Origin: a virus
Reading direction: 5' to 3' (one strand)
IMG/VR virus record: IMGVR_UViG_3300024239_000017
Length of the DNA stretch: 64,000 nucleotides
Shown here piece after piece: positions 1,634-56,270 of this stretch; the first letter of the stretch is position 1; each line of letters begins with the position of its first letter. The translations under genes and the position numbers were made by a program. The notes beneath the pieces are model-generated. The model saw nothing but the letters and a program-made list of their open reading frames with translations, was not told the origin of the DNA and made no database searches.

Positions 1634-1730
1634 AGATTTATATTGGCGGAATTGGTATACAGCGATTGAAGGCAAGAGCTCAGGTAATTCACTAGAAATG
1701 GTTACAGGTTCGAATCCTGTATATAAATCT
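1634..1730 (+). ncRNA. tRNA-like element: Leu-type D arm and canonical T arm, no normal anticodon loop
   Basis: GGCGGAATTGGTATAC D arm, ACAGG-TTCGAAT-CCTGT, AT-rich acceptor, about 17-nt loop in place of the anticodon. Confidence 0.6.
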
Positions 1731-2462: not shown

Positions 2463-2978
2463 ATGGGAAACAAAGTTAACTACAAACGATGTTTGGAATT
2501 GAATTCAGCATATTTACCTACAAAAATAATAGACTCCGATAGAGCATATATACTGTATTTAAAAGGTAATGCTGAAATTATAGAAGAACATCCAGAAACA
2601 TTTGGACTAGTAAATCCTGACTATGAGATATATAGACCATCTATAATTAGAGTAAAGAAATTTTTTCAAGGAAAAATACATAATGTAAAATTTTCTAGAG
2701 AAAATGTTTTTAAAAGAGATGATTATACATGTGTTTATTGTGGTAAAAGGGATAAAAAAGATTGCACATTAGATCATGTTCACCCTGTTAGTAAAGGTGG
2801 AAAAGATAGTTTTGAAAATTGTGTAACAGCATGTAAAAAATGTAATAGTGAGAAAGATAACTTAACAGTATATGAATGGGGAAGAGAACATCCAAACCCA
2901 AAAAGACCTCACTTCCTTATGTTGTTAAATAATTTAGAACATATTCCAGAAGAATGGAAAAAGTTTTTACTTTGGTAA
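2463..2978 (+). CDS. HNH endonuclease, McrA-like family associated with tRNA arrays
   Basis: SRENVFKRDDYTCVYCG...TLDHVHPVSKGG...NCVTACKKCN. Confidence 0.88.
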   Translation: MGNKVNYKRCLELNSAYLPTKIIDSDRAYILYLKGNAEIIEEHPETFGLVNPDYEIYRPSIIRVKKFFQGKIHNVKFSRENVFKRDDYTCVYCGKRDKKDCTLDHVHPVSKGGKDSFENCVTACKKCNSEKDNLTVYEWGREHPNPKRPHFLMLLNNLEHIPEEWKKFLLW

Positions 2979-3028
2979 AATATAGAGGGTTGGGTGACGA
3001 ATAACCTGAGATAAAAAGCACATTTTAT

Positions 3029-3115
3029 AGAGGTGGTCTGAATGGACGAAGAGCTAGTCTTGAAAACTAGTAGGTCGTTAATAGCGATTTGAGGGTTCGA
3101 TTCCCTTCGCCTCTT
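3029..3115 (+). tRNA. tRNA-Ser(TGA)
   Basis: AGAGGTG/CGCCTCT, CTAGT-CTTGAAA-ACTAG, long variable arm. Confidence 0.88.
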
Positions 3116-3121
3116 CAATTT

Positions 3122-3208
3122 GGAAAACAGTCGAATATTGGTTTGTCGTGCTTCACTGCTAATGAAGTCCTTATAAAAGAGGTGAGAGTTCAATTCTCTC
3201 GTTTTCCG
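3122..3208 (+). tRNA. tRNA-Ser(GCT)
   Basis: GGAAAAC/GTTTTCC, CTTCA-CTGCTAA-TGAAG. Confidence 0.88.
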
Positions 3209-3279
3209 CAATAATATTAAAACTTTTAATACTGAAAATCAACAGATTATAAAATAATATTAATTTTTTTATTAATATA

Positions 3280-3311
3280 TTTGTATAATTCAAATTTTTT
3301 TCGTATGTTTG
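3280..3311 (+). promoter_or_regulatory. Bacteroidota-type -33/-7 promoter
   Basis: TTTG(3280)-N20-TATGTTTG(3304-3311). Confidence 0.8.
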
Positions 3312-3322
3312 CAAAATAAAAT

Positions 3323-3395
3323 CGCGGGGTAGAGCAGTAGGTAGCTCGCAAGGCTCATAACCTTGAGGTCGATGGTTCGAGTCCATCCCACGCTA
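3323..3395 (+). tRNA. tRNA-fMet(CAT), initiator
   Basis: CGCGGGG start with unpaired C1, CAAGG-CTCATAA-CCTTG. Confidence 0.9.
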
Positions 3396-3581: not shown

Positions 3582-3653
3582 TCCGACATCGCATAACGGT
3601 ATTGCACTGGCGTTGTAACCCAGCTTTTCTCGGTTCGAATCCGAGTGTCGGAT
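3582..3653 (+). tRNA. tRNA-Thr(TGT)
   Basis: TCCGACA/TGTCGGA, GTTGTAA loop (C31:C39 mismatch). Confidence 0.75.
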
Positions 3654-3660
3654 CAAAAAT

Positions 3661-3739
3661 ATTGCTGTGCCCGAGAGGTTGAAGGGGTCGCTCTGCAAAA
3701 GCGATAATATCACCGCAGGTTCGAATCCTGTCAGCAATT
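3661..3739 (+). tRNA. tRNA-Cys(GCA)
   Basis: ATTGCTG/CAGCAAT with U73, TCGCT-CTGCAAA-AGCGA. Confidence 0.9.
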
Positions 3740-3745
3740 CAAAAC

Positions 3746-3817
3746 AGATCTATGGTATAAAGGATATTACATTTGATTTTGACTCAAATAATCTAGGTTC
3801 GATTCCTAGTGGATCTA
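3746..3817 (+). tRNA. tRNA-Gln(TTG)
   Basis: AGATCTA/TGGATCT, TTTGA-TTTTGAC-TCAAA. Confidence 0.9.
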
Positions 3818-3834
3818 CAATAAATTTATTAAAA

Positions 3835-3987
3835 ATGGCGGGCAAATCAAAAACCAGACTAGTAATGGAGGAATTTAAAAAAGGACAATTGAACGTAGGT
3901 AAAAGTCCTAAGAAAGTAACCTCTAGAAAACAAGCAATCGCTATTGCACTTTCAGAACAGAAAAGAGTTAATAGCAAGAAAAAATAA
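3835..3987 (+). CDS. Small basic protein, DUF6496-like
   Basis: VMEEFKKGQL..GKS.KKVTSRKQAIAIALSE; start at ATG 3835. Confidence 0.7.
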   Translation: MAGKSKTRLVMEEFKKGQLNVGKSPKKVTSRKQAIAIALSEQKRVNSKKK

Positions 3988-3990
3988 TAT

Positions 3991-4064
3991 ACTACTATAT
4001 CTTAATTGGTTAAAGAACTACGCTGATACCGTAGAGTATGGTTGTTCGAATCAACCTAGTAGTA
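3991..4064 (+). tRNA. tRNA-Ile(GAT)
   Basis: ACTACTA/TAGTAGT, CTACG-CTGATAC-CGTAG. Confidence 0.88.
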
Positions 4065-4308
4065 CTAAGCCTTTCACGTTTGGGTAAGCACGCGGAGCAG
4101 AATGGTAACATTCTGAAACCCTTAAAACAACCGAATTAGGTAAATTGTGCCGTGATAGGATGGGCTGCCTATCAAGTTAATTTATAATCAATTAGGGCTT
4201 TTGATTTGCGGTGGGTACTACATTACACCTGTTGCACAAGAGGACAACCGTTTAGACAACCAGTCAAAAAGCAGATGATAATGTCATGGTGTAGTATTGA
4301 TTATACAT

Positions 4309-4384
4309 GCAGGTGTCGCATAGTGGTCGATTGCGCTAGACTTCCAATCTAGAATTACCGTGGGTTCGAATCCCACTACCTGCT
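4309..4384 (+). tRNA. tRNA-Gly(TCC)
   Basis: GCAGGTG/TACCTGC with U73, CTAGA-CTTCCAA-TCTAG. Confidence 0.92.
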
Positions 4385-4390
4385 CAACAT

Positions 4391-4461
4391 GGTGTTAATA
4401 GTGTAATGGTAGCACGAATGTCTGTGAAACATTTAGACAGGGTTCAAATCCCCTTAACACA
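4391..4461 (+). tRNA. tRNA-His(GTG)
   Basis: Encoded G-1, GTGTTAA/TTAACAC, AATGT-CTGTGAA-ACATT; A73. Confidence 0.85.
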
Positions 4462-4498
4462 CAAAATTAAAAATTTTAACAAATTTTAACATTATTTA

Positions 4499-4530
4499 TT
4501 TGCATATGTCAAAATTTTTTCGTATGTTTG
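4499..4530 (+). promoter_or_regulatory. Bacteroidota-type promoter (repeated 32-bp unit)
   Basis: TTTGCATATGTCAAAATTTTTTCGTATGTTTG; near-identical copies at 5686 and 44365. Confidence 0.82.
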
Positions 4531-21405: not shown

Positions 21406-21705
21406 ATGAAAAAAATAGCATTGCTAATATTATTTATTGTTTTAGGTTTTTCAACCCTTGCTTGGAATATCTCTCCACAAGAAACAGTAATCGTAGAAAA
21501 AGAATTAGAAACTAACATCGATACGGAAGATGCTTTCAAAAAGTATAAAGTAGTAGAAGATGATGATTTCAAAATGATACCAAAAGTAGACGTATATAGA
21601 AGGTTTAAATATATTAAAGAAAAATCTATAGTTCCTTTTATATACAAAAAAACTACTTTTGTAGAATCTTCTACAGTGATAGAAGAAAACAATTGTGGAT
21701 GTTAA
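21406..21705 (+). CDS. Secreted hypothetical protein
   Basis: Signal peptide. Confidence 0.6.
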   Translation: MKKIALLILFIVLGFSTLAWNISPQETVIVEKELETNIDTEDAFKKYKVVEDDDFKMIPKVDVYRRFKYIKEKSIVPFIYKKTTFVESSTVIEENNCGC

Positions 21706-21809: not shown

Positions 21810-22303
21810 AAGGCTAAACATTGAACCTTTGTAATCAAGAGAAAACGTAGTGGGGCTAGCCTACTTTAAATCAAATTTAGACATTGATTACATAAAGATA
21901 CTAATCCTGAATTGACAGGATAAATTTTAGTGCAAAAAATTAAAGCAAATGGGAGAGGTACACTCCACTAATTTTTGGAGTAATCCTAGATGTGTTGTTC
22001 CCTTGAGAAAGGAATAGTTATAAAATAAGGTGATTAATTTCCCTTTTTAGAGAATAGATATGACAAGTGCTTATCAGCTATCTCACAACACAAATGAGCT
22101 GCTATCCGTGAGGACGCAGGTACAGAAATGTACTTCTCAGCAAGTAGTTAAACGATGTGTAACAGAAAGAACTATGATAGGAAGAACCTATACGTTGAAA
22201 TCTTAGTACTTAACTACGTGACCCTACTCTTATAAACTTCCAAAGACACGAAACAGAAATGTGGATACCGTGCAAGTCAATATAAGACAAGAGGGTGCTA
22301 AAA
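21810..22303 (+). ncRNA. Large unidentified structured RNA, copy A
   Basis: Seven blocks conserved with 41982-43136, separated by variable hairpins; no ORF. Confidence 0.75.
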
Positions 22304-22396: not shown

Positions 22397-24010
22397 ATGG
22401 CTAAATATAGATTTAAAACCGAAGAGGAATTTAAAGCGGAGGGATTATGGAATTATAAATTAGAAACTCCAAATAAATGGAATGATGAAGGAGAAATGGA
22501 TGAATATCTCGGGAAAGATATTCCTGATAAATATAATAGTAAATGTGATAGCAAACAATCATTCGTGTATGAAGGCTGGTATTTTAATGAAAATAGTTAT
22601 GTATTAAAAGAAAAAGAAGAAAAAGTTCTTCGATTTAAAAAAGATAAGTGGTATCATTATAAAAAGGGAAAAGGGTATTATTTAAGAAGTGATAGAGATA
22701 GTGAAGATATTATCCATTATTCAGAGTACATTTATCCTTCTGATAATGAACATGAATATCAAATTAATAGTTATGATAATGAGTATGTTACAGATGAAGA
22801 AGTACCTTTAGAAGAAGTTAGAAAATATCTTCTTAAAGGACATCCTGATAGGTTTAAAAAAGATTTAAAACTTAAAGATAATGTATGGTATGAAGTTACT
22901 TTGAGTCTTAAATTTAAGCATGTTTTTAAATTTATTGGGTATTATAAGCCAGGTAAAGTAAGTTTAAAGGAAGGTCATTATGATATTAATGGTGGTAGAT
23001 GGGTAAATGCAAACTGTTTTGATTTTGATTCAATCACTGATATTAAAGAGTTATCAGTAGAAGATATTCAACAATATTTACCTGAAAATCATCCAGATAA
23101 AATTACAACTCCTAAATTTGAAAAAGGAAAATGGTATAAATGGTATCAAAAAAATCATGGCTCTTTTCATTATGGTAAATTTGATAGCATTATTAATACT
23201 TCTATGAAAATGAAACCTTGGATCAGGCACTGTGATTCTTATAATGAAACAGGTAGTTTTGATATAAATAGTGCACAGCAAATTACAGAAGTTTCTTATT
23301 CAGAAATCGAACAATTTTTACCAGAAGACATGAAAGAGACTAAAGACTTTCCTAAATATTGGTTTGTAAAAAACAATAAACAACCAGAACTATTAGATTA
23401 TGCAGGTCATATTAGTAAGGAGAGTCCTAAGTGGTGGGAAACATATCCTTATATAGGTTATGACGGTGTACTATCTTGTAAAGGAATACACGGTTGTGGT
23501 ACTCATGCTTTCATAAATAACGCTATAGAAGTATCATTTGAAGATTTTCTTGAAAATGTATATTATGTAAAATTTCCTGAAAAAAGAAAACAAAAATCAG
23601 AATTTGTTTTACCTGAAAAATGGTATACTAAACCAAAAACAAATGAAGAAAAGGATGTTCTTAATAAATTTGTAGTAGATTTAAAAGATAATCATTGGAA
23701 AATTGAAGACAAATATTCCTATGAACATACACCACATTTTAAAAATGGAAATTATCAAAGATCTACATGGATTGGATATGAAGATAATGACTATACTGAA
23801 ATTACTTTTGAACAGTTCAAAAAATACGTTTTGAAGGATAAAAGTGTCTCTTCAACAGATACAGTCAAATATGTTATGACTGCATCAGAAGAAACAGAAT
23901 TTGTTTCTAGTGTAGTAGAATTGACACCTGTTTATATTTTAAATGTAGAAGATAGTAAAATATTACCATTACCAAAAAGTATAGAATCAGTAAAAACAAA
24001 ATTAAATTAA
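22397..24010 (+). CDS. Modular hypothetical protein with internal repeats
   Basis: Repeated F.K.KWY...I..YLP..HPD and PEKW...EITFEQF modules. Confidence 0.75.
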   Translation: MAKYRFKTEEEFKAEGLWNYKLETPNKWNDEGEMDEYLGKDIPDKYNSKCDSKQSFVYEGWYFNENSYVLKEKEEKVLRFKKDKWYHYKKGKGYYLRSDRDSEDIIHYSEYIYPSDNEHEYQINSYDNEYVTDEEVPLEEVRKYLLKGHPDRFKKDLKLKDNVWYEVTLSLKFKHVFKFIGYYKPGKVSLKEGHYDINGGRWVNANCFDFDSITDIKELSVEDIQQYLPENHPDKITTPKFEKGKWYKWYQKNHGSFHYGKFDSIINTSMKMKPWIRHCDSYNETGSFDINSAQQITEVSYSEIEQFLPEDMKETKDFPKYWFVKNNKQPELLDYAGHISKESPKWWETYPYIGYDGVLSCKGIHGCGTHAFINNAIEVSFEDFLENVYYVKFPEKRKQKSEFVLPEKWYTKPKTNEEKDVLNKFVVDLKDNHWKIEDKYSYEHTPHFKNGNYQRSTWIGYEDNDYTEITFEQFKKYVLKDKSVSSTDTVKYVMTASEETEFVSSVVELTPVYILNVEDSKILPLPKSIESVKTKLN

Positions 24011-25388: not shown

Positions 25389-25459
25389 GGTGCCATAGCT
25401 CAGTAGGTAGAGCTGTGACGACGGTCATGAAAGCATAGGTTCGAACCCTATTGGCACCA
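25389..25459 (+). ncRNA. tRNA-like element with a 4-nt loop instead of an anticodon
   Basis: GGTGCCA/TGGCACC-A, canonical D and T arms, TGTGAC-GACG-GTCATG. Confidence 0.75.
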
Positions 25460-25463
25460 CAGA

Positions 25464-25735
25464 TTGACTTGTTGACTTAGTAAGCAACTTTGCAGGACGA
25501 GGGTTCGAATCCCTCCATCTCCACTACGTTATCACATGAGTGATTGTCAGTTAAATTCCCTAGAAGTTCATCAGAGCATGGTCTGATAAAAATGGGGATG
25601 ACTGGTTTCGACTGTAAACAGAGGTACTAACGAGAGTTAATTCATAAGTAAACGGAAACGTTGTAAAAATGAACTTCGCTACTGCTAGAGCAGTGGCATA
25701 GTTCCGTTCGGGGAGAACGACATCTCCCCATTTTT
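25464..25735 (+). ncRNA. ssrA: Permuted (two-piece) tmRNA; tag (A)GNVVKMNFATARAVA
   Basis: Acceptor piece GGACGAGGGTTCGAATCCCTCCATCTCCA ends at 25523, before the coding piece GGGGATGACTGGTTTCGAC starting at 25594; G3:U70; tag ORF 25654-25701; terminator hairpin follows. Confidence 0.85.
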
Positions 25736-39794: not shown

Positions 39795-40568
39795 ATGAAA
39801 AATATATATTTAATACCAACAGATAAAGGAAGTAAATTAACAATAAGAAAATCAGACAGTAAATTATTATTTTCAAAAGATTATTTTAATACAGAATTAG
39901 GAGGAAATCAACATATTTACATTATTTCTGATGAAGAAATTAAAGATGGAGATTGGGTATATTGTAAACATCTTAATTGTATTCTACAATTTAAAAATCC
40001 AAGTAATAGACATTTTTATAAAAAAATCATTTTAACAACAGACCAAGACTTAATTAAAGATGGTGTACAAGCTATTGACGATGAGTTTTTAGAATGGTTT
40101 GTTAAGAATCCTACTTGTGAGTTTATTAATGTTGATGAAAAAACTCCTGATGAGATAGAAGTTGAATTAAATATTCACGGACATGATATAGGGCTAACTG
40201 ACAGGGAATTTGATGAGTGGTTAAATAACGGTGGTCAATTATATAAAATAATCATTCCAAAACCAGAACAAAAACAAATACTTTCAGAAATGATGCAAGA
40301 AGATGAAAAATCAGGATTGTATGACGAAACAATAGAACAAGCTGCTCAAGAATATTCAAAGTATTTAGATGACTTTTCTTATAAAGACTTTTACGCAGGA
40401 GCTTTATACCAACAAAAACAAACGTATTCTAAACAACAAACATTTGAACTAATGAAACAAGCTTTTGAAGCAGGTTTTAAAAAAGCTGATACCGTAGAAG
40501 CAGGTTTAGAACCTAAAGAAACTGAACAAGAAGTTAATTGGATTTTAACAAAATTTAAAAATAAATAA
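39795..40568 (+). CDS. Mosaic hypothetical protein
   Basis: N terminus resembles 14834; C terminus shared with 43888. Confidence 0.7.
   Translation: MKNIYLIPTDKGSKLTIRKSDSKLLFSKDYFNTELGGNQHIYIISDEEIKDGDWVYCKHLNCILQFKNPSNRHFYKKIILTTDQDLIKDGVQAIDDEFLEWFVKNPTCEFINVDEKTPDEIEVELNIHGHDIGLTDREFDEWLNNGGQLYKIIIPKPEQKQILSEMMQEDEKSGLYDETIEQAAQEYSKYLDDFSYKDFYAGALYQQKQTYSKQQTFELMKQAFEAGFKKADTVEAGLEPKETEQEVNWILTKFKNK
40425..40568 (+). repeat. 144-bp direct repeat, copy 1
   Basis: Near-identical to 43996-44139. Confidence 0.9.
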
Positions 40569-41436: not shown

Positions 41437-41681
41437 AAATAATATTAAAACAATTTTTAATAGTAGACGAGGATAGACAAGAAGAATTTAGAACTAAAAT
41501 AGATTTTACTTCATGTATTAAAAAATATAAACATGGTGATTTATATTTGGAAGTATGTGAGACAATACCTCAGCGCGGATTTTTCTATGAAGGAAACGGT
41601 TATAAAAAAATATTCATTGGTAAACTAAATTCTAAATTAAAAATAGAAGATTATTTGAAAATAAGACAACAAATTAATTAA
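41433..41681 (+). CDS. Hypothetical protein
   Basis: ORF. Confidence 0.55.
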   Translation: MKIILKQFLIVDEDRQEEFRTKIDFTSCIKKYKHGDLYLEVCETIPQRGFFYEGNGYKKIFIGKLNSKLKIEDYLKIRQQIN

Positions 41682-41981: not shown

Positions 41982-43136
41982 AAGGCTAAACATTGAACCA
42001 TTGTAAATCCGAAAGAAGTGTCAAAAGCTCTTAAGACACATTCACACTCTGGGGTCAGTTTGAATCTGGCGACACAAATTAGGGCTTGTGAATATCAGAT
42101 GAGTTAAGAGAGAGTGTGGTTTACATAAAGATACTAATCTTGAATTGACAGGATGATTAATAGATGAGATTGTATCAAAGTCTCGTGTATAGACCGAGAA
42201 TGTTAATTGGAGTAATCCTAGATGTGTTGTTCCCTTGAGAAAGGAGTGTAGAAGAAGTTAACATGGTTTTAGAATTGCCTGAAATCCACTTACAACACAA
42301 ATGAGTTCTCAATATTTACCCTAATTAGAAATAATGGGTGGAATATTTATTTTATTTTGCTTGATACTAATCATTTTTATTTGTATCTTTGTATAAATTA
42401 TTAATAATATGTGGAAACAAATAGAAGATTTAGATTATGAAATAAATTCTGAAGGGTTAGTAAGAAGAATTTCAACAAAAAGAATTAAGAAATCTTTTAA
42501 AAGACCAGATGGTTATATAGGTATTCAATTATATTTAACAAAAGATAAAATTAAAAATTATCAATTGCACAGATTAATTGCAAATGCTTTTATTCCAAAT
42601 CCTGAAAATAAACAGTATGTTAATCATAAAGATTCTAATAGAGAAAATAATTTATTAGATAATCTTGAATGGGTAACATTTGAAGAAAATGTAAAACATG
42701 GATATGAATCAGGGTATGCTTCTAATAAAGGTTCTAAAAATGGGTTTTCTGTATTAACAGAGATACAAGTTTTAGAAATAAGAAAAAGAAGAGTAGAAGA
42801 AAAGTTATCATATCAAAAATTAGCAGAAATATATAATGTTTCTTATAGTTGTATTGCTGGAATAATTCAAAGAATTAATTGGAAACATATTTAAGATAAA
42901 CTAAACCCTAATTGAAACTATACAGTAATGTATAGAATGGATATAGTTGTATGAGATATACTATTGTAAACCATTGGGAGTTCTCAGCAAGTAGTTAAGC
43001 AATTGAAATAATAGAATTAGCAATATGCTCTATTAACTACGTGACCCTACTCTTATTTAATATTAAGATTGATGTCCATAATTATTTATGAAAAACTAGA
43101 GTTCTTTTTATTAAATAAGACAAGAGGGTGCTAAAA
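41982..43136 (+). ncRNA. Large unidentified structured RNA, copy B, interrupted by an HNH gene
   Basis: Same seven conserved blocks as 21810-22303. Confidence 0.75.
42409..42894 (+). CDS. NUMOD4/HNH homing endonuclease with C-terminal HTH
   Basis: WKQI..YEINSEG, HRLIANAFIPNPENKQYVNHKDSNRENN...NLEWVT; own promoter TATCTTTG at 42384. Confidence 0.9.
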   Translation: MWKQIEDLDYEINSEGLVRRISTKRIKKSFKRPDGYIGIQLYLTKDKIKNYQLHRLIANAFIPNPENKQYVNHKDSNRENNLLDNLEWVTFEENVKHGYESGYASNKGSKNGFSVLTEIQVLEIRKRRVEEKLSYQKLAEIYNVSYSCIAGIIQRINWKHI

Positions 43137-43152
43137 TTTTAAATTAACTATT

Positions 43153-43476
43153 ATGGAAAAGCAAACATTTTTAATAAAATCTTTTATTCCTTCAGATGAA
43201 AATATTGTAAGGTCTGATATTTATAAGCTACAAAAATTAGGTTATAAACATAATATTACTTGGATATTTATTGCTATTACTTATAATGGTGGATACGGAA
43301 CAGGTATGGATATTTTTGGACATAAAACTGAATTAGAAGCGGTTAAATCATTAATTTCTGTAGGTGCGTTTGATAATAGTGAAACAGAACTTTATAAGTT
43401 TGGAGATATGACTTTAGATGAAGCATTAGAAATAAGAAAACAACAAGTAGAATATTTAACTCAAAAATTAAAATAA
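43153..43476 (+). CDS. Hypothetical protein
   Basis: ORF. Confidence 0.6.
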   Translation: MEKQTFLIKSFIPSDENIVRSDIYKLQKLGYKHNITWIFIAITYNGGYGTGMDIFGHKTELEAVKSLISVGAFDNSETELYKFGDMTLDEALEIRKQQVEYLTQKLK

Positions 43477-43887: not shown

Positions 43888-44139
43888 ATGACATCAGAAA
43901 GAATAAAAGAAATACAACAGAAAACAGCTTATCCTGAAAGTAGAAGTGTAAAACAGGCACTTGACCAAGTATGGAACGAATGTTCACAAGAGTCTTATTC
44001 TAAACAACAAGTATTAGAGTTAATGAAACAATCGTTTGAAGCAGGATTTAAAAAAGCTGATATTGTAGAAGCAGGTTTAGAACCTAAAGAAACTGAACAA
44101 GAAGTTAATTGGATTTTACTAAAACATAAAAATAAATAA
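43888..44139 (+). CDS. Hypothetical protein
   Basis: C terminus duplicated from 39795-40568. Confidence 0.65.
   Translation: MTSERIKEIQQKTAYPESRSVKQALDQVWNECSQESYSKQQVLELMKQSFEAGFKKADIVEAGLEPKETEQEVNWILLKHKNK
43996..44139 (+). repeat. 144-bp direct repeat, copy 2
   Basis: Near-identical to 40425-40568. Confidence 0.9.
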
Positions 44140-46970: not shown

Positions 46971-48833
46971 ATGGGATTCAGAATTAATTCACTTTATTTA
47001 AGTGATGGATATAAAGTTGGGCATAAAAGCATGTTAGCCCCAGGAACAACAAGATTATATGGTACATGGATACCTAGAAGTTTAAAACATGCCCCTAAAG
47101 GTATTAATAAAATAGTTACATTTTATTATCAAGCGGTTTGGAAAAGATTGAATGACGAATTTAATGAAAACTTTTTCTTTACAGCAGAAAGAAACCTTGC
47201 AATACTTGATGGAGATCAAGATAAATTTGAAGAATTGAAAGTTAATGCAATGGTTTTTGCAAAAGATATGTCCGATTATCTTGGTATGGACTATGACGGA
47301 AATCATTTTGGACAATTATGGGATATAGGTTATTTACCTATAAGAGTTAAAGCATTACCTGAAGGTATAGAAACTCTTCCTAACATTCCTCATATGACTT
47401 TTATCAACACTGTTAAAGGTTTTGGATGGCTTACTCTTTACTTAGAAACTATTGTAAGTAATCAAGCTTGGAAAGGTAGTACTTCTGCTACTATTGCTAA
47501 ATTATATCGTAGACAAGCAGAAGAATGGGTTAATAAAACAGATAAAGCTAATATTGGATTAGTAGATTGGATGTGCCATGATTTCTCTTCTAGAGGATTG
47601 TCTGGCGTAGATGATATGATTACTGTTGGATTGGGACACGCTACTTCTTTTAGAGGTTCTGATACATTAGTAACTATACCTGCTGCAAGATATTATTATA
47701 ATGAAACAGAAGTTTGTATTGGTTCTGTAAATGCATCTGAACACTCTGTATCTACAACTAAAATTTTCACTGTTGGTGAAAAGCAAATGATTATTGACTG
47801 GTTGAAAGAAATTCCAAATGGTATTTTTTCAATGGTTTGTGATACATTTAGTACTTGGCAATTTATTGAATATTTAAAGGATCCTGAGATTAAAGAACTA
47901 GTACTTAATCGTAATGGTAAATTAGTAGTAAGACCTGATTCAGGAGACCCCGCAGATATTATTTGTGGTAAAAAACCTAAGAAAAGAAAATATTTTGCAG
48001 AATATTCTGAAAACGATATAGAAGAATGGTTAGAAATTTCATCAGATGAAATGATAACTAATATATTAAATGATAAAGAATATATCTATGAATTAGATGA
48101 TTTCTTACCATCAATGAGTGGTGGAAGAGATTATACTCCTGATTTTAAAGATGGGCAAACATGTTATATAAAAATAGGTAATAGAGTAATCGCATTTGAA
48201 GTATATACAGGAGAATGTGTAGAAGCTACTTGGGCTCATACTATTAATGAAACAGATATAAAAAATCTGAGAGAAGTAGACCCAATAGAAAAAAATTCAC
48301 CCGAAGCAAAAGGAGTTGTAGAACTTCTTTGGGATATTTTTGGAGGAACAGTTAATGAACAAGGTTATAAAGTATTAGATCCTCATATCGGTGCCATTTA
48401 CGGTGATAGTATTACACCTGAAAGACAAGTAGATATTTATAAAAGACTATCTGAAAAAGGATTTGCATCAACAAATATAGTTTTAGGTATAGGTTCATTT
48501 ACATATGAATATATGACTAGAGATACTTTAGGTTTTGCTGCAAAAGGAGCATGGTTTGAAGTAGAAGGAGAAGGTAAGTGCAATTGTGGTCATACAATAG
48601 ACTGTGACTGTGTAAAACAATATGATATTTATAAAGACCCTATTACAGACGACGGTACTAAAAAATCATTAAAAGGATTTTTACAAGTATACAAAGATGA
48701 ACAAGGAGAATATAGAGTCAAAGAACAATGTACTGTTGAAGAAGAAAATACAGGAGAATTACAATTGATATTTGAAAATGGTAAATTCTTTAATCAAACA
48801 AGTTTAACAGAAATTAGAAATAGATTAAAATAA
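46971..48833 (+). CDS. Nicotinamide phosphoribosyltransferase-like protein (Namat/NadV)
   Basis: SDGYKVGH, HDFSSRG, ASEHSV, VRPDSGDP, IYGDSIT, KDPITDDGTKKS. Confidence 0.92.
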   Translation: MGFRINSLYLSDGYKVGHKSMLAPGTTRLYGTWIPRSLKHAPKGINKIVTFYYQAVWKRLNDEFNENFFFTAERNLAILDGDQDKFEELKVNAMVFAKDMSDYLGMDYDGNHFGQLWDIGYLPIRVKALPEGIETLPNIPHMTFINTVKGFGWLTLYLETIVSNQAWKGSTSATIAKLYRRQAEEWVNKTDKANIGLVDWMCHDFSSRGLSGVDDMITVGLGHATSFRGSDTLVTIPAARYYYNETEVCIGSVNASEHSVSTTKIFTVGEKQMIIDWLKEIPNGIFSMVCDTFSTWQFIEYLKDPEIKELVLNRNGKLVVRPDSGDPADIICGKKPKKRKYFAEYSENDIEEWLEISSDEMITNILNDKEYIYELDDFLPSMSGGRDYTPDFKDGQTCYIKIGNRVIAFEVYTGECVEATWAHTINETDIKNLREVDPIEKNSPEAKGVVELLWDIFGGTVNEQGYKVLDPHIGAIYGDSITPERQVDIYKRLSEKGFASTNIVLGIGSFTYEYMTRDTLGFAAKGAWFEVEGEGKCNCGHTIDCDCVKQYDIYKDPITDDGTKKSLKGFLQVYKDEQGEYRVKEQCTVEEENTGELQLIFENGKFFNQTSLTEIRNRLK

Positions 48834-48834
48834 A

Positions 48835-49779
48835 ATGAAACTTCCTTGGAATAAAGATAATAGTGTGAAATCAGTAAATATACCAGAAGGTGATAAATCT
48901 TTTGGTGATCTTATAATGGATAATTCAATCGAAATAAGGATTATAAATGAATTTTATTACAAAGTCTTAAGTTATCCAGATGGTAGTAAATATGTCAAAG
49001 TTTATAACATTTATAACGATTTAACTTTTAAAATTAATTCTTATGAAGATTTATGGATTTTAAATCAGATACATGACGTGGTTAAAAGTAAAGGTAGGTA
49101 TGTTACTGTAACAATACCTAATTTAATTGACGCTCAAGCAGATAGAAGATTCAATTCAGATGAATCTAGTGGATTAAAATTAGTTTGTAACTTTTTAAAT
49201 GGTCTTTCTAATTTCAATTATAAGATATTTCATCCACATAATCAAGAAGTAGTTGAAGCTTTATTAGATAGAGTTGAAATCATTGATAATTCCGAATTTA
49301 TAAATCAAGTAATATCTATTAAATTGAATGCAAGAATAGATAACTCGGTAAAAGATAATTTAATTTTAATGAGTTCTGATGCAGGAGGATTCAAACCCTT
49401 AATGAAATTAGCTGATAAACTTGCTTGGAGAGGTGAAACTTTCTCAGCGTCTAAATCTAGAAAATATGAAGAGGGTAAATCAAAATTACTTCAACAAATT
49501 GATAGACAGGACTTTAATGGAAAAGATATTCTCATAATAGATGATATATGTGTTTATGGGGGAACATTTAAAGGTCTTGCTAAAATGTTAAGAGAAAGAA
49601 ATTGTGGTAAATTATATTTAGCTGTAAGTCATATGACAGTTGAAAATTTAGGTGAAGATCCTGTAACTGATTACTTTGATATGGTTTATACTACTAATAG
49701 TAAATTTGAATTTTATGATAAACCAGAAAAATATCATGGAGACAGATTAGATAATTTAGAAATAATTAAATTGTTTTAA
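48835..49779 (+). CDS. Ribose-phosphate pyrophosphokinase-like protein (Adps-like)
   Basis: AQADRRF, FHPHN, SDAGG, LIIDDICVYGGTF. Confidence 0.88.
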   Translation: MKLPWNKDNSVKSVNIPEGDKSFGDLIMDNSIEIRIINEFYYKVLSYPDGSKYVKVYNIYNDLTFKINSYEDLWILNQIHDVVKSKGRYVTVTIPNLIDAQADRRFNSDESSGLKLVCNFLNGLSNFNYKIFHPHNQEVVEALLDRVEIIDNSEFINQVISIKLNARIDNSVKDNLILMSSDAGGFKPLMKLADKLAWRGETFSASKSRKYEEGKSKLLQQIDRQDFNGKDILIIDDICVYGGTFKGLAKMLRERNCGKLYLAVSHMTVENLGEDPVTDYFDMVYTTNSKFEFYDKPEKYHGDRLDNLEIIKLF

Positions 49780-54911: not shown

Positions 54912-56270
54912 ATGATAACAGGAAAAGATTTAATAGCATTAGGATATATTCCTAATAAGCTATTTGGGGACGCAATAAAATATATAAATACATATGAATT
55001 ATCTACAGAAGAAATCAAATCTTTTCTAGATGAATTCTTTAAACCAACTCCTACTTTGGAGCCTTTTAAAACTCCTGTAGATTATATTCTTAATATTGAA
55101 GTAGAAAATCAAGACGAAGTAAACAACCTTAGTGCCATACACAATACTATGCAAGTCTTAATGAAGACTCCTACAGTGTTAACAGGTGTAATAATGCCTG
55201 ACGCTTGTCCTACAGGAGAGCCTGGTCAGATACCTGTAGGTGGTGTTGTAGTAACAGAAAATGCTATACACCCATCTATGCACTCAGCAGATGTATGTTG
55301 TTCAGTTATGACTTCTGATTTAGGTAAAATTGATCCTAAAGAAGTATTAGATATAGCATTTGCAACCACACATTTTGGTGCAGGCGGTAGAAAAGAACAT
55401 GGTGGTTGGGGAGATTTACTATATGATAATAATTACTTAGTAGAAAAAATACTAGGTAATTACTATACAAAAGATTATATAGAAAAAGCAGCAAAACATT
55501 TAGGAACTCAAGGTGATGGAAATCACTTTTTATTCGTAGGTATTTCTGAAAAAACAGGTAATACTCATATAGTAACACATCATGGTTCTAGAGGATTTGG
55601 TGCGGCAGTATATAAAAAAGGAATGGACACAGCAGAAAAGTATAGAAAAGAGCTTTCTCCAAATACTTTAAAGAAAAATGCTTGGATTCCTTATGATAGT
55701 GTAGAAGGTAAATTATATTGGGAAGCTCTTCAAATAGTAAGAGAATGGACTAAACTTAATCATGAATCACTTCATAATAGAATTATAAATAAATTAAAAA
55801 TTCAATATGAAAATAGATTTTGGAACGAGCATAATTTTGTTTTCAAAGACGGTAATAAATTCTATCACGCTAAAGGTGCTACACCATTAGAAGATAAATT
55901 TGTACCTGATTCACAAAATGGATTAAGATTAATACCTTTGAATATGTCACAACCTGTTTTGGTTGTAAAAGGTGAAGCTACAGATACAAATTTAGGATTT
56001 GCACCTCATGGTGCTGGTAGAAATGTATCAAGAGCAGAACATCATAGAAGACACGCTAACAAAACTGACGAACAAGTTTTTAAAGAAGAAACAAAAGGAC
56101 TTGATGTTAGATTTTATACAGGTAAAATAGATATATCTGAGTTACCTAGTGCATATAAAAATGCAGAAAGTGTACAAAGACAAATAGAAAAATTTGGACT
56201 AGGTACTGTTGTGGATAGAATAATGCCTTATGGTTGTATAATGGCAGGAAAACAAGAAAAATTTTATTAA
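54912..56270 (+). CDS. rtcB: RtcB RNA ligase
   Basis: MPDAC, DVCC, GNHF, HHGSRG, HNF, HGAGR, ELPSAYK. Confidence 0.92.
   Translation: MITGKDLIALGYIPNKLFGDAIKYINTYELSTEEIKSFLDEFFKPTPTLEPFKTPVDYILNIEVENQDEVNNLSAIHNTMQVLMKTPTVLTGVIMPDACPTGEPGQIPVGGVVVTENAIHPSMHSADVCCSVMTSDLGKIDPKEVLDIAFATTHFGAGGRKEHGGWGDLLYDNNYLVEKILGNYYTKDYIEKAAKHLGTQGDGNHFLFVGISEKTGNTHIVTHHGSRGFGAAVYKKGMDTAEKYRKELSPNTLKKNAWIPYDSVEGKLYWEALQIVREWTKLNHESLHNRIINKLKIQYENRFWNEHNFVFKDGNKFYHAKGATPLEDKFVPDSQNGLRLIPLNMSQPVLVVKGEATDTNLGFAPHGAGRNVSRAEHHRRHANKTDEQVFKEETKGLDVRFYTGKIDISELPSAYKNAESVQRQIEKFGLGTVVDRIMPYGCIMAGKQEKFY

What the first reader, a model, noticed from the sequence alone, without database searches (positions are those of the whole stretch)
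21810..22303. Large unidentified structured ncRNA present in two diverged copies
Seen: the ORF-free segment 21810-22303 and the segment 41982-43136 share seven collinear blocks: AAGGCTAAACATTGAACC; TTACATAAAGATACTAATCYTGAATTGACAGGA; an identical 39-mer TTGGAGTAATCCTAGATGTGTTGTTCCCTTGAGAAAGGA (21975/42207); ACAACACAAATGAG; TTCTCAGCAAGTAGTTAA; TTAACTACGTGACCCTACTCTTAT; and ATAAGACAAGAGGGTGCTAAAA. Most of the six unrelated inserts are closed by a conserved helix (TGTAA/TTACA, TGTGTTGT/ACAACACA, TGAG/CTCA, GTAGTTAA/TTAACTAC, TCTTAT/ATAAGA, ACCCT/AGGGT). Inference: a core of about 170 nt with exchangeable peripheral domains, the pattern of a ribozyme or scaffold RNA. I could not match it to group I or II introns, RNase P, 6S or tmRNA. 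GOLLD, ROOL and RAGATH classes cannot be excluded by eye.
Basis: partly seen in the sequence, partly recalled or inferred. Interest (0 to 1): 0.85.

Follow-up and report, generated by a model that had tools for sequence, protein, structure and literature searches.

The report
Uncatalogued phage structured RNA, two copies
Both flagged stretches are genes for one elaborately folded non-coding RNA that is missing from the RNA family catalogue, occurs in about a hundred uncultured phage genomes and matches an abundant unexplained transcript of a cultured marine phage; its job is still unknown.

Summary
Window 21812-22301 and 41984-43134 share the seven collinear blocks, including an identical 39-mer that is not expected by chance.

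Both are + strand genes of one structured RNA family:
- I recovered 94 distinct full-length members (217-607 nt) from 100 loci, nearly all IMG/VR viral contigs.
- Cellulophaga phage phi14:2 carries it at the g004-g005 junction. That junction was published as an early, very abundant, stable "long non-coding RNA" of unknown function.
- Ten helices (P1-P10) fit. 92.9% of cells pair, against 32-49% for slid controls. 26 pairs show compensatory changes (0 of 500 shuffles reach this).
- Rfam 15 gives no hit even at E up to 10. This excludes group I and II introns, RNase P, GOLLD, ROOL and the like.

Copy 2 is the same RNA with a 675-nt cassette in the P7 loop. Two other family members carry such a cassette at the same site.

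Family members often abut tRNA or tmRNA genes. Function is not shown. My best inference is a trans-acting folded RNA that binds a conserved partner linked to translation.

This scan had already found the family on other DNA and made the phi14:2 link. I re-tested that link here.

The parts
21812..22301 (+). Copy 1 of the structured RNA gene (490 nt), from GGCUAAAC to GGGUGCUAA
   Evidence: Collinear blocks; nhmmer E 2e-26; family covariation
21812..21827 (+). P1: 2-3 bp hairpin GG/CC closing the conserved loop L1 (UAAACAUUGA)
   Evidence: The pair changes together across relatives: GG/CC, GC/GC, CG/UG, CA/UG, GA/UC (read). MAFFT misaligns this stretch, so the tool count is only 72.5% paired
21828..21897 (+).
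   Evidence: 7 of 9 pairs show changes on both sides (helix 2)
21901..21989 (+). P3 domain: CUA/UAG base, side hairpin CCUG-AAUUGA-CAGG (21904-21921), AU-rich helix carrying insert 2, and tip GGA-GUAA-UCC (21977-21986). In small relatives it is one hairpin, CUAUCA-GNRA-UGGUAG
   Evidence: All 6 pairs of the simple hairpin covary (helix 3). The side hairpin covaries (CUUG/CAAG in L006 and L008). The tip covaries (GCU-GUAA-AGC in L064)
21991..22092 (+). P4 (UGUGUUG 21991-21997 with CAACACA 22086-22092), enclosing P5 and the variable P6 (insert 3)
   Evidence: 100% paired in 27 sequences (helix 4)
21998..22014 (+). P5: stem UUCC/GGAA with loop L5, C-UUGAGAA-A, a 7-nt loop with U at its second position
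   Evidence: All 4 stem pairs covary (helix 5). UGAGA is kept in 68 of 69 distinct variants
22095..22139 (+). P7 (UGAG 22095-22098 with CUCA 22136-22139) holding a 35-nt insert of two GNRA-capped hairpins (22099-22133)
   Evidence: The insert hairpins covary with L005: CUGC..GCAG/UCC-GUGA-GGA against UGAG..CUCA/UCC-GUAA-GGA. P7 itself has no covariation support
22141..22220 (+). P8: CA-A-GUAGUUAA with UUAACUAC-G-UG, a conserved A.G mismatch near the base, and a variable tip (insert 5)
   Evidence: Strong covariation in the extra loci: GUGCUUC/GAAGUAC, GUGGU/ACCAC, GACUA/UAGUC
22221..22301 (+). P9 (ACCCU/AGGGU) enclosing P10 (UCUUAU 22228-22233 with AUAAGA 22282-22287, insert 6), then the 3' tail GCUAA
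   Evidence: helices 8-10. ACCCA/UGGGU in L059
41984..43134 (+). Copy 2 of the same RNA gene (1151 nt; about 476 nt without the cassette). All six peripheral inserts are unrelated to those of copy 1
   Evidence: two nhmmer pieces, E 5e-16 and 9e-14
42306..42980 (+). 675-nt cassette in the P7 loop of copy 2. It is bounded by the 9-nt repeat GAGUUCUCA (42303-42311 and 42978-42986) and can be closed by its own helix, UUCUCA/UGGGAG
   Evidence: It is 80.5% identical over its full length to the cassette at the same site in L008, whose RNA has different peripheral domains
42409..42894 (+). ORF of 161 aa: HNH homing endonuclease
   Evidence: Pfam HNH_3, 34.3 bits against a cut-off of 24.8; phrog_59, E 3e-43

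Best explanation
Both segments are + strand genes for one family of structured non-coding RNA carried by phages.

Fold. The RNA forms ten helices. P1 is a hairpin with the invariant loop UAAACAUUGA. P2 follows. P3 is a GNRA-capped hairpin. P4 encloses P5 (invariant 7-nt loop UUGAGAA) and the variable P6. Then come P7 and P8. P9 encloses P10. The RNA ends in GCUAA. Loops and junctions are almost invariant. The tips of P2, P3, P6, P7, P8 and P10 are free to vary, which is why the two window copies share only the core.

Copy 2. It is the same RNA whose P7 loop has been invaded by a cassette that carries an HNH homing endonuclease. The cassette is stem-closed, so the core could still fold around it.

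Shown: family membership, the fold, the strand, and (in phage phi14:2 only) early, abundant and stable expression.

Inferred: the RNA is released from longer early transcripts. In many relatives this would be done by the enzymes that trim the tRNA or tmRNA genes it abuts. It then acts in trans as a compact folded particle. Its invariant loops would bind a highly conserved partner, most likely a component of the translation, tRNA or ribosome-rescue machinery. It is not a cis-regulator and not an intron. I put about 0.9 on the identity and the fold, and about 0.35 on the translation-linked partner. The confidence given for this explanation is for the identity, the fold and the trans-acting nature, not for the partner.
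For: Family: exact and degenerate core scans gave loci L001-L122, with 94 distinct full-length members in 100 loci. All seven blocks are collinear in phi14:2 at 2913-3359.

Expression: Drobysheva et al. (bioRxiv 10.1101/2020.03.07.982082) report the g004-g005 junction as transcribed rightward, early, above most mRNAs and not declining late.

Fold: 92.9% of cells pair against 32-49% when the 3' partners are slid. 26 pairs change on both sides against 9.4 in shuffles, and 0 of 500 shuffles reach the observed values on all five measures. P8 shows further compensatory variants.

Strand: many U-G and G-U pairs (for example UG:18 and GU:3 at one P3 pair) would be A-C mismatches on the other strand. 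The strand is also that of the flanking genes.

Not catalogued: no Rfam 15 hit at the gathering score or at E up to 10.

Context: tRNA or tmRNA 3' ends lie 2-7 nt upstream, or tRNA or tmRNA starts 4-60 nt downstream, in many loci. 22 of 65 members have a same-strand tRNA or tmRNA within 1 kb. Tandem copies are separated by AUAA.

Not cis-regulatory: the downstream genes differ from locus to locus.

Endonuclease.
Against: No function has been measured for any member. In this window neither copy touches a tRNA (the nearest are about 2 kb away), so release by tRNA-processing enzymes cannot be general. No promoter or terminator could be assigned. Single-sequence folding is only marginally better than shuffles and does not separate the strands (z -1.6 and -1.95). 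Metatranscriptome contigs from three studies (aquatic, wastewater and sludge) carry the conserved blocks of relatives, but contigs cannot prove transcription, and some run on upstream of the 5' end. No conserved protein neighbour points to a partner. P7 and the alternative pairing of loop L5 with UCUC are both unsupported by covariation.
Confidence: 0.8

Rival explanations
1. RNA-only multimeric scaffold or cage, like ROOL and GOLLD. The invariant loops (L1, L5, the AAUUGA loop) make contacts between copies, and the variable tips decorate the outside.
For: It has the same kind of home as GOLLD and ROOL: phage genomes beside tRNA genes (Kretsch et al., bioRxiv 10.1101/2024.12.08.627333, listed). 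It is large and ornate, with several GNRA loops. It is very abundant in phi14:2. No protein partner is conserved nearby.
Against: No sequence or covariance-model similarity to ROOL or GOLLD. No palindromic kissing loop is conserved. Members are smaller (217-600 nt). Nothing here tests oligomerisation.
Confidence: 0.2
2. Decoy or anti-defence RNA. The P5 hairpin, with its 7-nt loop N-U-GAG-A-N, mimics an anticodon stem-loop and soaks up a host anticodon nuclease or another tRNA-directed defence.
For: UGAGA is kept in 68 of 69 loop variants. The one exception reads UAG, which like GAG is a leucine anticodon. The window phage invests in tRNA supply and repair: 24 or more tRNAs and an RtcB ligase. 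Expression is early in phi14:2.
Against: The stem length varies from 4 to 6 bp, and the usual closing pair is a C.A mismatch. Position 37 is A, whereas (from my own knowledge) leucine tRNAs that read CUN carry G37. The same UGAGA is complementary to the invariant UCUCA of P7, so it may simply be an internal tertiary contact. No defence gene is linked.
Confidence: 0.12
3. Ribozyme. The invariant junction nucleotides form an active site that cuts the RNA out of its precursor (both ends carry GCUAA-like motifs) or acts on tRNA or tmRNA precursors.
For: Unpaired nucleotides are conserved as strongly as in rRNA across very different phages. The 5' start G-G-Y-UAAAC and the 3' end GGUGCUAA resemble each other. 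Tandem units are separated by only AUAA. The window phage encodes RtcB, which joins the kind of ends that self-cleaving ribozymes leave (the link is my inference).
Against: No known ribozyme model matches. RNA-library contigs run through the 5' boundary. No cleavage data exist.
Confidence: 0.1
4. A self-splicing or mobile intron-like element (group I-like). The homing endonuclease would be its usual passenger.
For: It has a conserved core with variable peripheral loops and an endonuclease ORF looped out of a stem, the classic look of a phage group I intron. It is patchily spread across unrelated phages, with several copies per genome.
Against: The flanks are not exons. They are stop codons, AT-rich spacers, or complete tRNA and tmRNA ends, and they differ between loci. 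No P3/P7-type pseudoknot is present. The element ends in GCUAA rather than G, and the base before it is usually A rather than U. No intron model hits even at E up to 10. phi14:2 accumulates the RNA stably.
Confidence: 0.04
5. Not an RNA at all: a DNA-level element (origin, packaging or recombination site), or a cis-acting leader of the downstream gene.
For: It is intergenic and AT-rich, with direct and inverted repeats. Single-sequence folding is not strand-specific.
Against: The compensatory changes include many G-U pairs that work on one strand only. The downstream genes are unrelated between loci. A stable abundant transcript exists in phi14:2.
Confidence: 0.02

Closest known systems
The 'long non-coding RNA' of the g004-g005 junction of Cellulophaga crAss-like phage phi14:2 (Drobysheva et al., bioRxiv 10.1101/2020.03.07.982082; NC_021806 2913-3359)
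   Same: Same family. All seven blocks are collinear on the same strand as the flanking genes, with compensatory changes in P5 (UCC/GGA becomes CAC/GUG). It is the only member among 50,697 GenBank phage records.
   Different: The paper reports only read abundance over an intergenic region. It gives no boundaries, fold, family or function. The window phage is a different lineage: its family A DNA polymerase is under 37% identical to that of any cultured phage, whereas phi14:2 has PolB. The window carries two copies, one of them with an endonuclease cassette. Placing g005 at about 3590-3910 is my inference from removed RefSeq features.
GOLLD (RF01998) and ROOL (RF03087) large ornate RNAs
   Same: Large, multi-helix RNAs of unknown function carried by phages and prophages, typically next to tRNA genes.
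   Different: No sequence or structure-model match. The new family is smaller and has a different helix plan. It is essentially confined to viral contigs: only 2 contigs from the 185,579 species representative genomes match, both in metagenome bins.
Phage group I introns that carry HNH or GIY-YIG homing endonucleases (T4 td, nrdB; SPO1 DNA polymerase intron)
   Same: A structured RNA with a conserved core whose peripheral loop serves as a tolerated landing site for a homing endonuclease gene.
   Different: There are no exons, no splice-site signature, no P3/P7 pseudoknot and no Rfam hit. Here the host of the endonuclease is a free-standing RNA gene rather than an intron.

Membership tests
phi14:2 g004-g005 junction RNA family (unnamed) | The conserved blocks (P1 loop, J2/3, P3, P4/P5, P7, P8 base, P9/P10, GCUAA tail) in the same order | tested here: met
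   All blocks found collinear at L020 2913-3359 and in both window copies
phi14:2 g004-g005 junction RNA family (unnamed) | A shared secondary structure kept by compensatory change | tested here: met
   92.9% paired, 26 pairs with double changes, 0 of 500 shuffles reach this
phi14:2 g004-g005 junction RNA family (unnamed) | Early, abundant, stable transcript | tested here: inconclusive
   Published for phi14:2 only. For the window and its relatives, only short contigs in RNA libraries hold the conserved blocks
Group I intron | Match to an Rfam group I intron covariance model | tested here: not met
   No hit at E up to 10 with lax filters on either copy
Group I intron | Flanks that form one continuous gene, U before the 5' splice site, G as the last intron base | tested here: not met
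   The flanks are unrelated spacers, stop codons or complete tRNA ends. The element ends in GCUAA and is usually preceded by A
Group I intron | P3/P7 pseudoknot around a G-binding site | tested here: not met
   All covariation-supported helices are nested or consecutive. No crossing conserved pairing was found
Group II intron | GUGYG 5' end, conserved domain V, reverse-transcriptase ORF in domain IV | tested here: not met
   No Rfam hit. The ORF is HNH only. The helices after the ORF vary between copies
GOLLD / ROOL / RAGATH / RNase P / 6S / tmRNA | Match to the family's covariance model | tested here: not met
   None listed at the gathering score or at E up to 10
HNH homing endonuclease (ORF 42409-42894) | HNH_3 domain above Pfam's curated cut-off | tested here: met
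   34.3 bits against 24.8; phrog_59, E 3e-43
HNH homing endonuclease (ORF 42409-42894) | The same insertion site in otherwise different host alleles, plus empty alleles (the signature of homing) | tested here: met
   Cassettes sit at the same P7 site in the window copy, L008 and L101. 83 of 93 counted members have no insert there
HNH homing endonuclease (ORF 42409-42894) | Cleavage of the empty site | not testable with these tools
   Needs an enzyme assay

The most novel reading that the evidence does not exclude
This is a new class of phage RNA machine: a catalytic or self-assembling RNA that acts on the tRNA, tmRNA or ribosome system of Bacteroidota-type hosts early in infection. It has also become the first known free-standing RNA gene (as opposed to an intron) to serve as a homing site for endonuclease cassettes.
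Probability: 0.2. Interest if true: 0.9.

Novelty: new variant of a known kind. Interest (0 to 1): 0.7.

Why it matters
Large bacterial and phage RNAs with conserved, complex folds are rare. Past examples (ribosome, RNase P, group I and II introns, tmRNA, and lately ROOL, GOLLD and OLE) each revealed new biochemistry.

This family has unpaired nucleotides conserved as strongly as in rRNA. It is spread over phages with unrelated replication genes and contigs from 5 to 373 kb. It is missing from Rfam. One member sits in a cultured, genetically approachable phage-host pair, phi14:2 and Cellulophaga baltica, where it is already known to be among the most abundant early transcripts. That makes its function directly testable.

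The endonuclease cassettes in the P7 loop also mark the DNA of P7 as a conserved homing target. They show that P7 is an insertion-tolerant position, which is useful for tagging the RNA.

Tried and rejected
- blastn of copy 1 against GenBank phages at E 1e-5 found nothing. A shorter family member with a looser cut-off later found phi14:2.
- No whole genome is held for the window.
I used an nhmmer profile and MAFFT alignments instead, so no model-based alignment was made.
- A blind search of all column pairs for tertiary covariation was too noisy, because the loops hardly vary.
- Sigma-70 promoter and terminator scans gave nothing usable.
- Single-sequence folding z-scores are weak on both strands.
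- Clustering of neighbouring proteins found no specific partner, only a paralogous protein family of unknown function.
- The complement of loop L1 has no meaningful target in the window or in phi14:2.
- I could not decide between the P7 hairpin and a pseudoknot of L5 (GAGA) with UCUC. L102, L106 and L122 each break one or both without compensation.
- Reads laid on the window: RNA-library contigs hold only the conserved blocks of relatives. Uncovered parts mean nothing, and DNA carry-over cannot be excluded.
- A literature search for the core motifs found no paper. The 10,006-candidate catalogue of Fremin et al. (PMC10690425) may contain pieces of this family, but its supplements are not held.
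- I considered whether the endonuclease cassette is itself a small intron. Its flanks are structured and covary. However, no splice-site pattern fits, only about 145-190 nt are non-coding, and no intron model hits.

Full report
**Observation.** The two segments were read directly. The 39-mer that begins TTGGAGTAATCC occurs exactly twice in the window, at 21975 and 42207, and in none of 100 shuffles. A block search places all seven blocks in the same order in both copies. Copy 1 (21812-22301) fills an ORF-free gap between ORFs 21406-21705 and 22397-24010. Copy 2 (41984-43134) lies between ORFs that end at 41681 (or 41852) and start at 43153, and it contains one real ORF, 42409-42894. An nhmmer profile of the family finds no third copy in the 64 kb.

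**Not a catalogued RNA.** Rfam 15 at gathering scores reports only tRNAs and one permuted-tmRNA hit elsewhere in the window. With lax filters and E up to 10, neither copy matches any intron, ribozyme, RNase P, 6S, tmRNA, GOLLD, ROOL or RAGATH model. Only chance-level miRNA and snoRNA rows appear.

**A large phage family.** Three exact-pattern scans and one degenerate scan of IMG/VR with parts of the core returned 11, 17, 87 and 47 loci. After removing duplicates there are 94 distinct full-length elements in 100 loci. They are 217-607 nt long, plus three longer ones that carry an ORF. The contigs range from 5 to 373 kb. A scan of one genome per prokaryote species found only two contigs, both in metagenome bins, so the family is essentially viral. 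The window phage has a family A DNA polymerase under 37% identical to that of any cultured phage. It also has nicotinamide phosphoribosyltransferase, PRPP synthetase, thymidylate synthase, an RtcB ligase and at least 24 tRNAs.

**Link to a cultured phage.** Notes from earlier agents of this scan pointed to phage phi14:2. I tested this myself. I fetched NC_021806 1-12000, and all blocks are present and collinear at 2913-3359 on the + strand, just after gene g004. blastn with a small family member finds phi14:2 and nothing else credible among 50,697 GenBank phage records. [quoted passage not shown] ARAGORN places a tmRNA at 4031-4500, so the second junction RNA is probably the phage tmRNA. Rfam has no hit anywhere in this stretch.

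**Structure.** Small members show the minimal plan:
- P1 is a 2-3 bp hairpin that closes the loop UAAACAUUGA.
- P2 follows, then the junction AAAGAUA.
- P3 is a hairpin, CUAUCA-GNRA-UGGUAG.
- P4 (UGUGUUG/CAACACA) encloses P5 (stem UUCC/GGAA, loop C-UUGAGAA-A) and a variable P6.
- After AAA comes P7 (UGAG/CUCA), then a single G.
- P8 (CA-A-GUAGUUA/UAACUAC-G-UG) keeps an A.G mismatch near its base.
- P9 (ACCCU/AGGGU) encloses P10 (UCUUAU/AUAAGA).
- The tail is GCUAA.

In the window copies P3 is enlarged. CUA/UAG closes a junction that holds the hairpin CCUG-AAUUGA-CAGG, an AU-rich helix carrying insert 2, and the tip GGA-GUAA-UCC.

On a 27-sequence MAFFT alignment, my 52 pairs are 92.9% paired, against 32-49% when the 3' partners are slid by 1-3 columns. 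26 pairs have changes on both sides, against 9.4 in shuffles. None of 500 shuffles reaches the observed values on any of the five measures. RNAalifold independently recovers P3, P4, P8 and P9. Loci from the fourth scan add clear P8 variants: GUGCUUC/GAAGUAC, GUGGU/ACCAC and GACUA/UAGUC. Seven members lack P8 altogether. Frequent G-U pairs fix the + strand. Single-sequence folding is uninformative.

Two points stay open. P7 is nearly invariant, and its rare changes are not compensated. The invariant UGAGA of loop L5 (68 of 69 variants) is complementary to the UCUCA of P7, so a pseudoknot is an equally good reading.

**The six inserts.** They are the tips of P2, P3, P6, P7, P8 and P10. They differ completely between the two window copies and across the family. 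Copy 1's P7 insert (22099-22133) is two GNRA-capped hairpins that covary with those of L005. Five members have such a 35-nt insert.

**The ORF in copy 2.** The 161-aa product is an HNH_3 homing endonuclease. The 675-nt cassette (42306-42980) sits between UGAG and UUCUCA of P7. It is flanked by the repeat GAGUUCUCA and can close on itself through UUCUCA/UGGGAG. The same cassette, 80.5% identical, occupies the same site in L008, whose RNA has different peripheral domains. L101 has a 131-aa HNH ORF at that site, in a cassette whose flanking hairpins covary with the window's. This is the pattern of homing into a conserved DNA target, with the RNA's loop acting as a tolerated site. I found no evidence that the cassette is a self-splicing intron.

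**Context and maturation.** Across the family the element starts 2-7 nt after a complete tRNA or tmRNA 3' end in at least 11 of 94 members. A tRNA or tmRNA starts 4-60 nt after its end in at least 7. 22 of 65 members have a same-strand tRNA or tmRNA within 1 kb. Tandem copies are separated by AUAA. Downstream genes are otherwise unrelated, and no specific protein partner recurs. This argues for co-transcription with RNA genes and release by processing. In the window itself, however, both copies sit between protein genes, about 2 kb from the nearest tRNA.

**Expression of the window copy.** DNA runs of one subsurface and soil study hold nearly the whole stretch, one of them the probable source sample. 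Wastewater and freshwater runs hold a quarter to a half of its sampled words. Short contigs in four RNA libraries from three studies (aquatic, wastewater and sludge) carry the conserved blocks of relatives, with summed word depth up to about 800 in the sludge run. Some contigs continue upstream of the 5' boundary. This is a weak hint of transcription at most.

**What it does.** Nothing here measures function. The near-invariance of unpaired nucleotides across phages with unrelated replication genes, the early and stable abundance in phi14:2, and the habitual company of tRNA and tmRNA genes lead me to favour one reading: a trans-acting folded RNA that binds a highly conserved partner, most likely in translation or tRNA metabolism. 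Cage-forming scaffold, anticodon-loop decoy and ribozyme are live alternatives. Intron, cis-leader and DNA element are disfavoured by the tests above.

**Novelty.** The family is absent from Rfam 15, and the core motifs appear in no relevant paper. One member is known only as an unexplained transcript. Earlier agents of this scan reached the same family-level conclusion on other genomes. This report adds the helix-by-helix model with controls, the paralogous pair with wholly different peripheries, and the endonuclease cassettes at P7.

Noticed in passing
window 25389-25637: A tRNA-like gene with an abnormal anticodon loop (ARAGORN 'tRNA-???', 25389-25460) is followed directly by a hit to the permuted tmRNA model (RF04321, 56.1 bits against a gathering score of 47, 25467-25637). 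This is a possible phage two-piece tmRNA about 3 kb downstream of copy 1.
   Followed up: no
L020 (NC_021806) 4031-4500: The second 'long non-coding RNA' of phi14:2 (g005-g006 junction) coincides with an ARAGORN tmRNA with tag peptide GSSVQKLAMVA*. Rfam's tmRNA models do not reach the gathering score there.
   Followed up: partly
window 54912-56270, 46971-49779: An RtcB-type RNA ligase, and a nicotinamide phosphoribosyltransferase next to a PRPP synthetase (an NAD salvage pair). Both fit a phage that counters tRNA-cleaving and NAD-depleting defences.
   Followed up: no
L022, L039, L042, L061, L069, L104 (just upstream of the RNA); L004, L029, L067, L085, L092 (just downstream); L036, L066, L076 (downstream): At least three other conserved non-coding modules recur next to family members. 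One begins AATAGCTAAGCTGTGTAAAGC, one begins CGAGGCTCAATCATTTGATTTGAGC, and one begins AAACTACTTGAGTA. They are probably further uncatalogued phage RNAs.
   Followed up: no
window 39795-40568 and 43888-44139: Members of a paralogous protein family of unknown function (weak match to phrog_15656) lie within 4 kb of the RNA in 31 loci, always on the same strand. They look like a general early-region family rather than a specific partner.
   Followed up: partly
window 1637-1729: ARAGORN calls a 93-nt tRNA with a four-base anticodon (aagg) inside the main tRNA array. It may be an interrupted or frameshift-suppressor-like tRNA, or an artefact.
   Followed up: no
window 42312-42408 and 42895-42980; L101 3750-4300: The non-coding flanks of the endonuclease cassette are themselves structured. 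A 5' hairpin ACCC...GGGUGG and a 3' GUAA-capped hairpin change in a compensatory way between the window/L008 and L101.
   Followed up: partly
L021, L035, L095 (45 nt upstream of the RNA): T-arm and acceptor-like 3' ends (CAGGTTCGAATCCTGTCCTGACTAC) abut the RNA, but ARAGORN calls no tRNA there. They may be tRNA look-alikes or tmRNA pieces.
   Followed up: no
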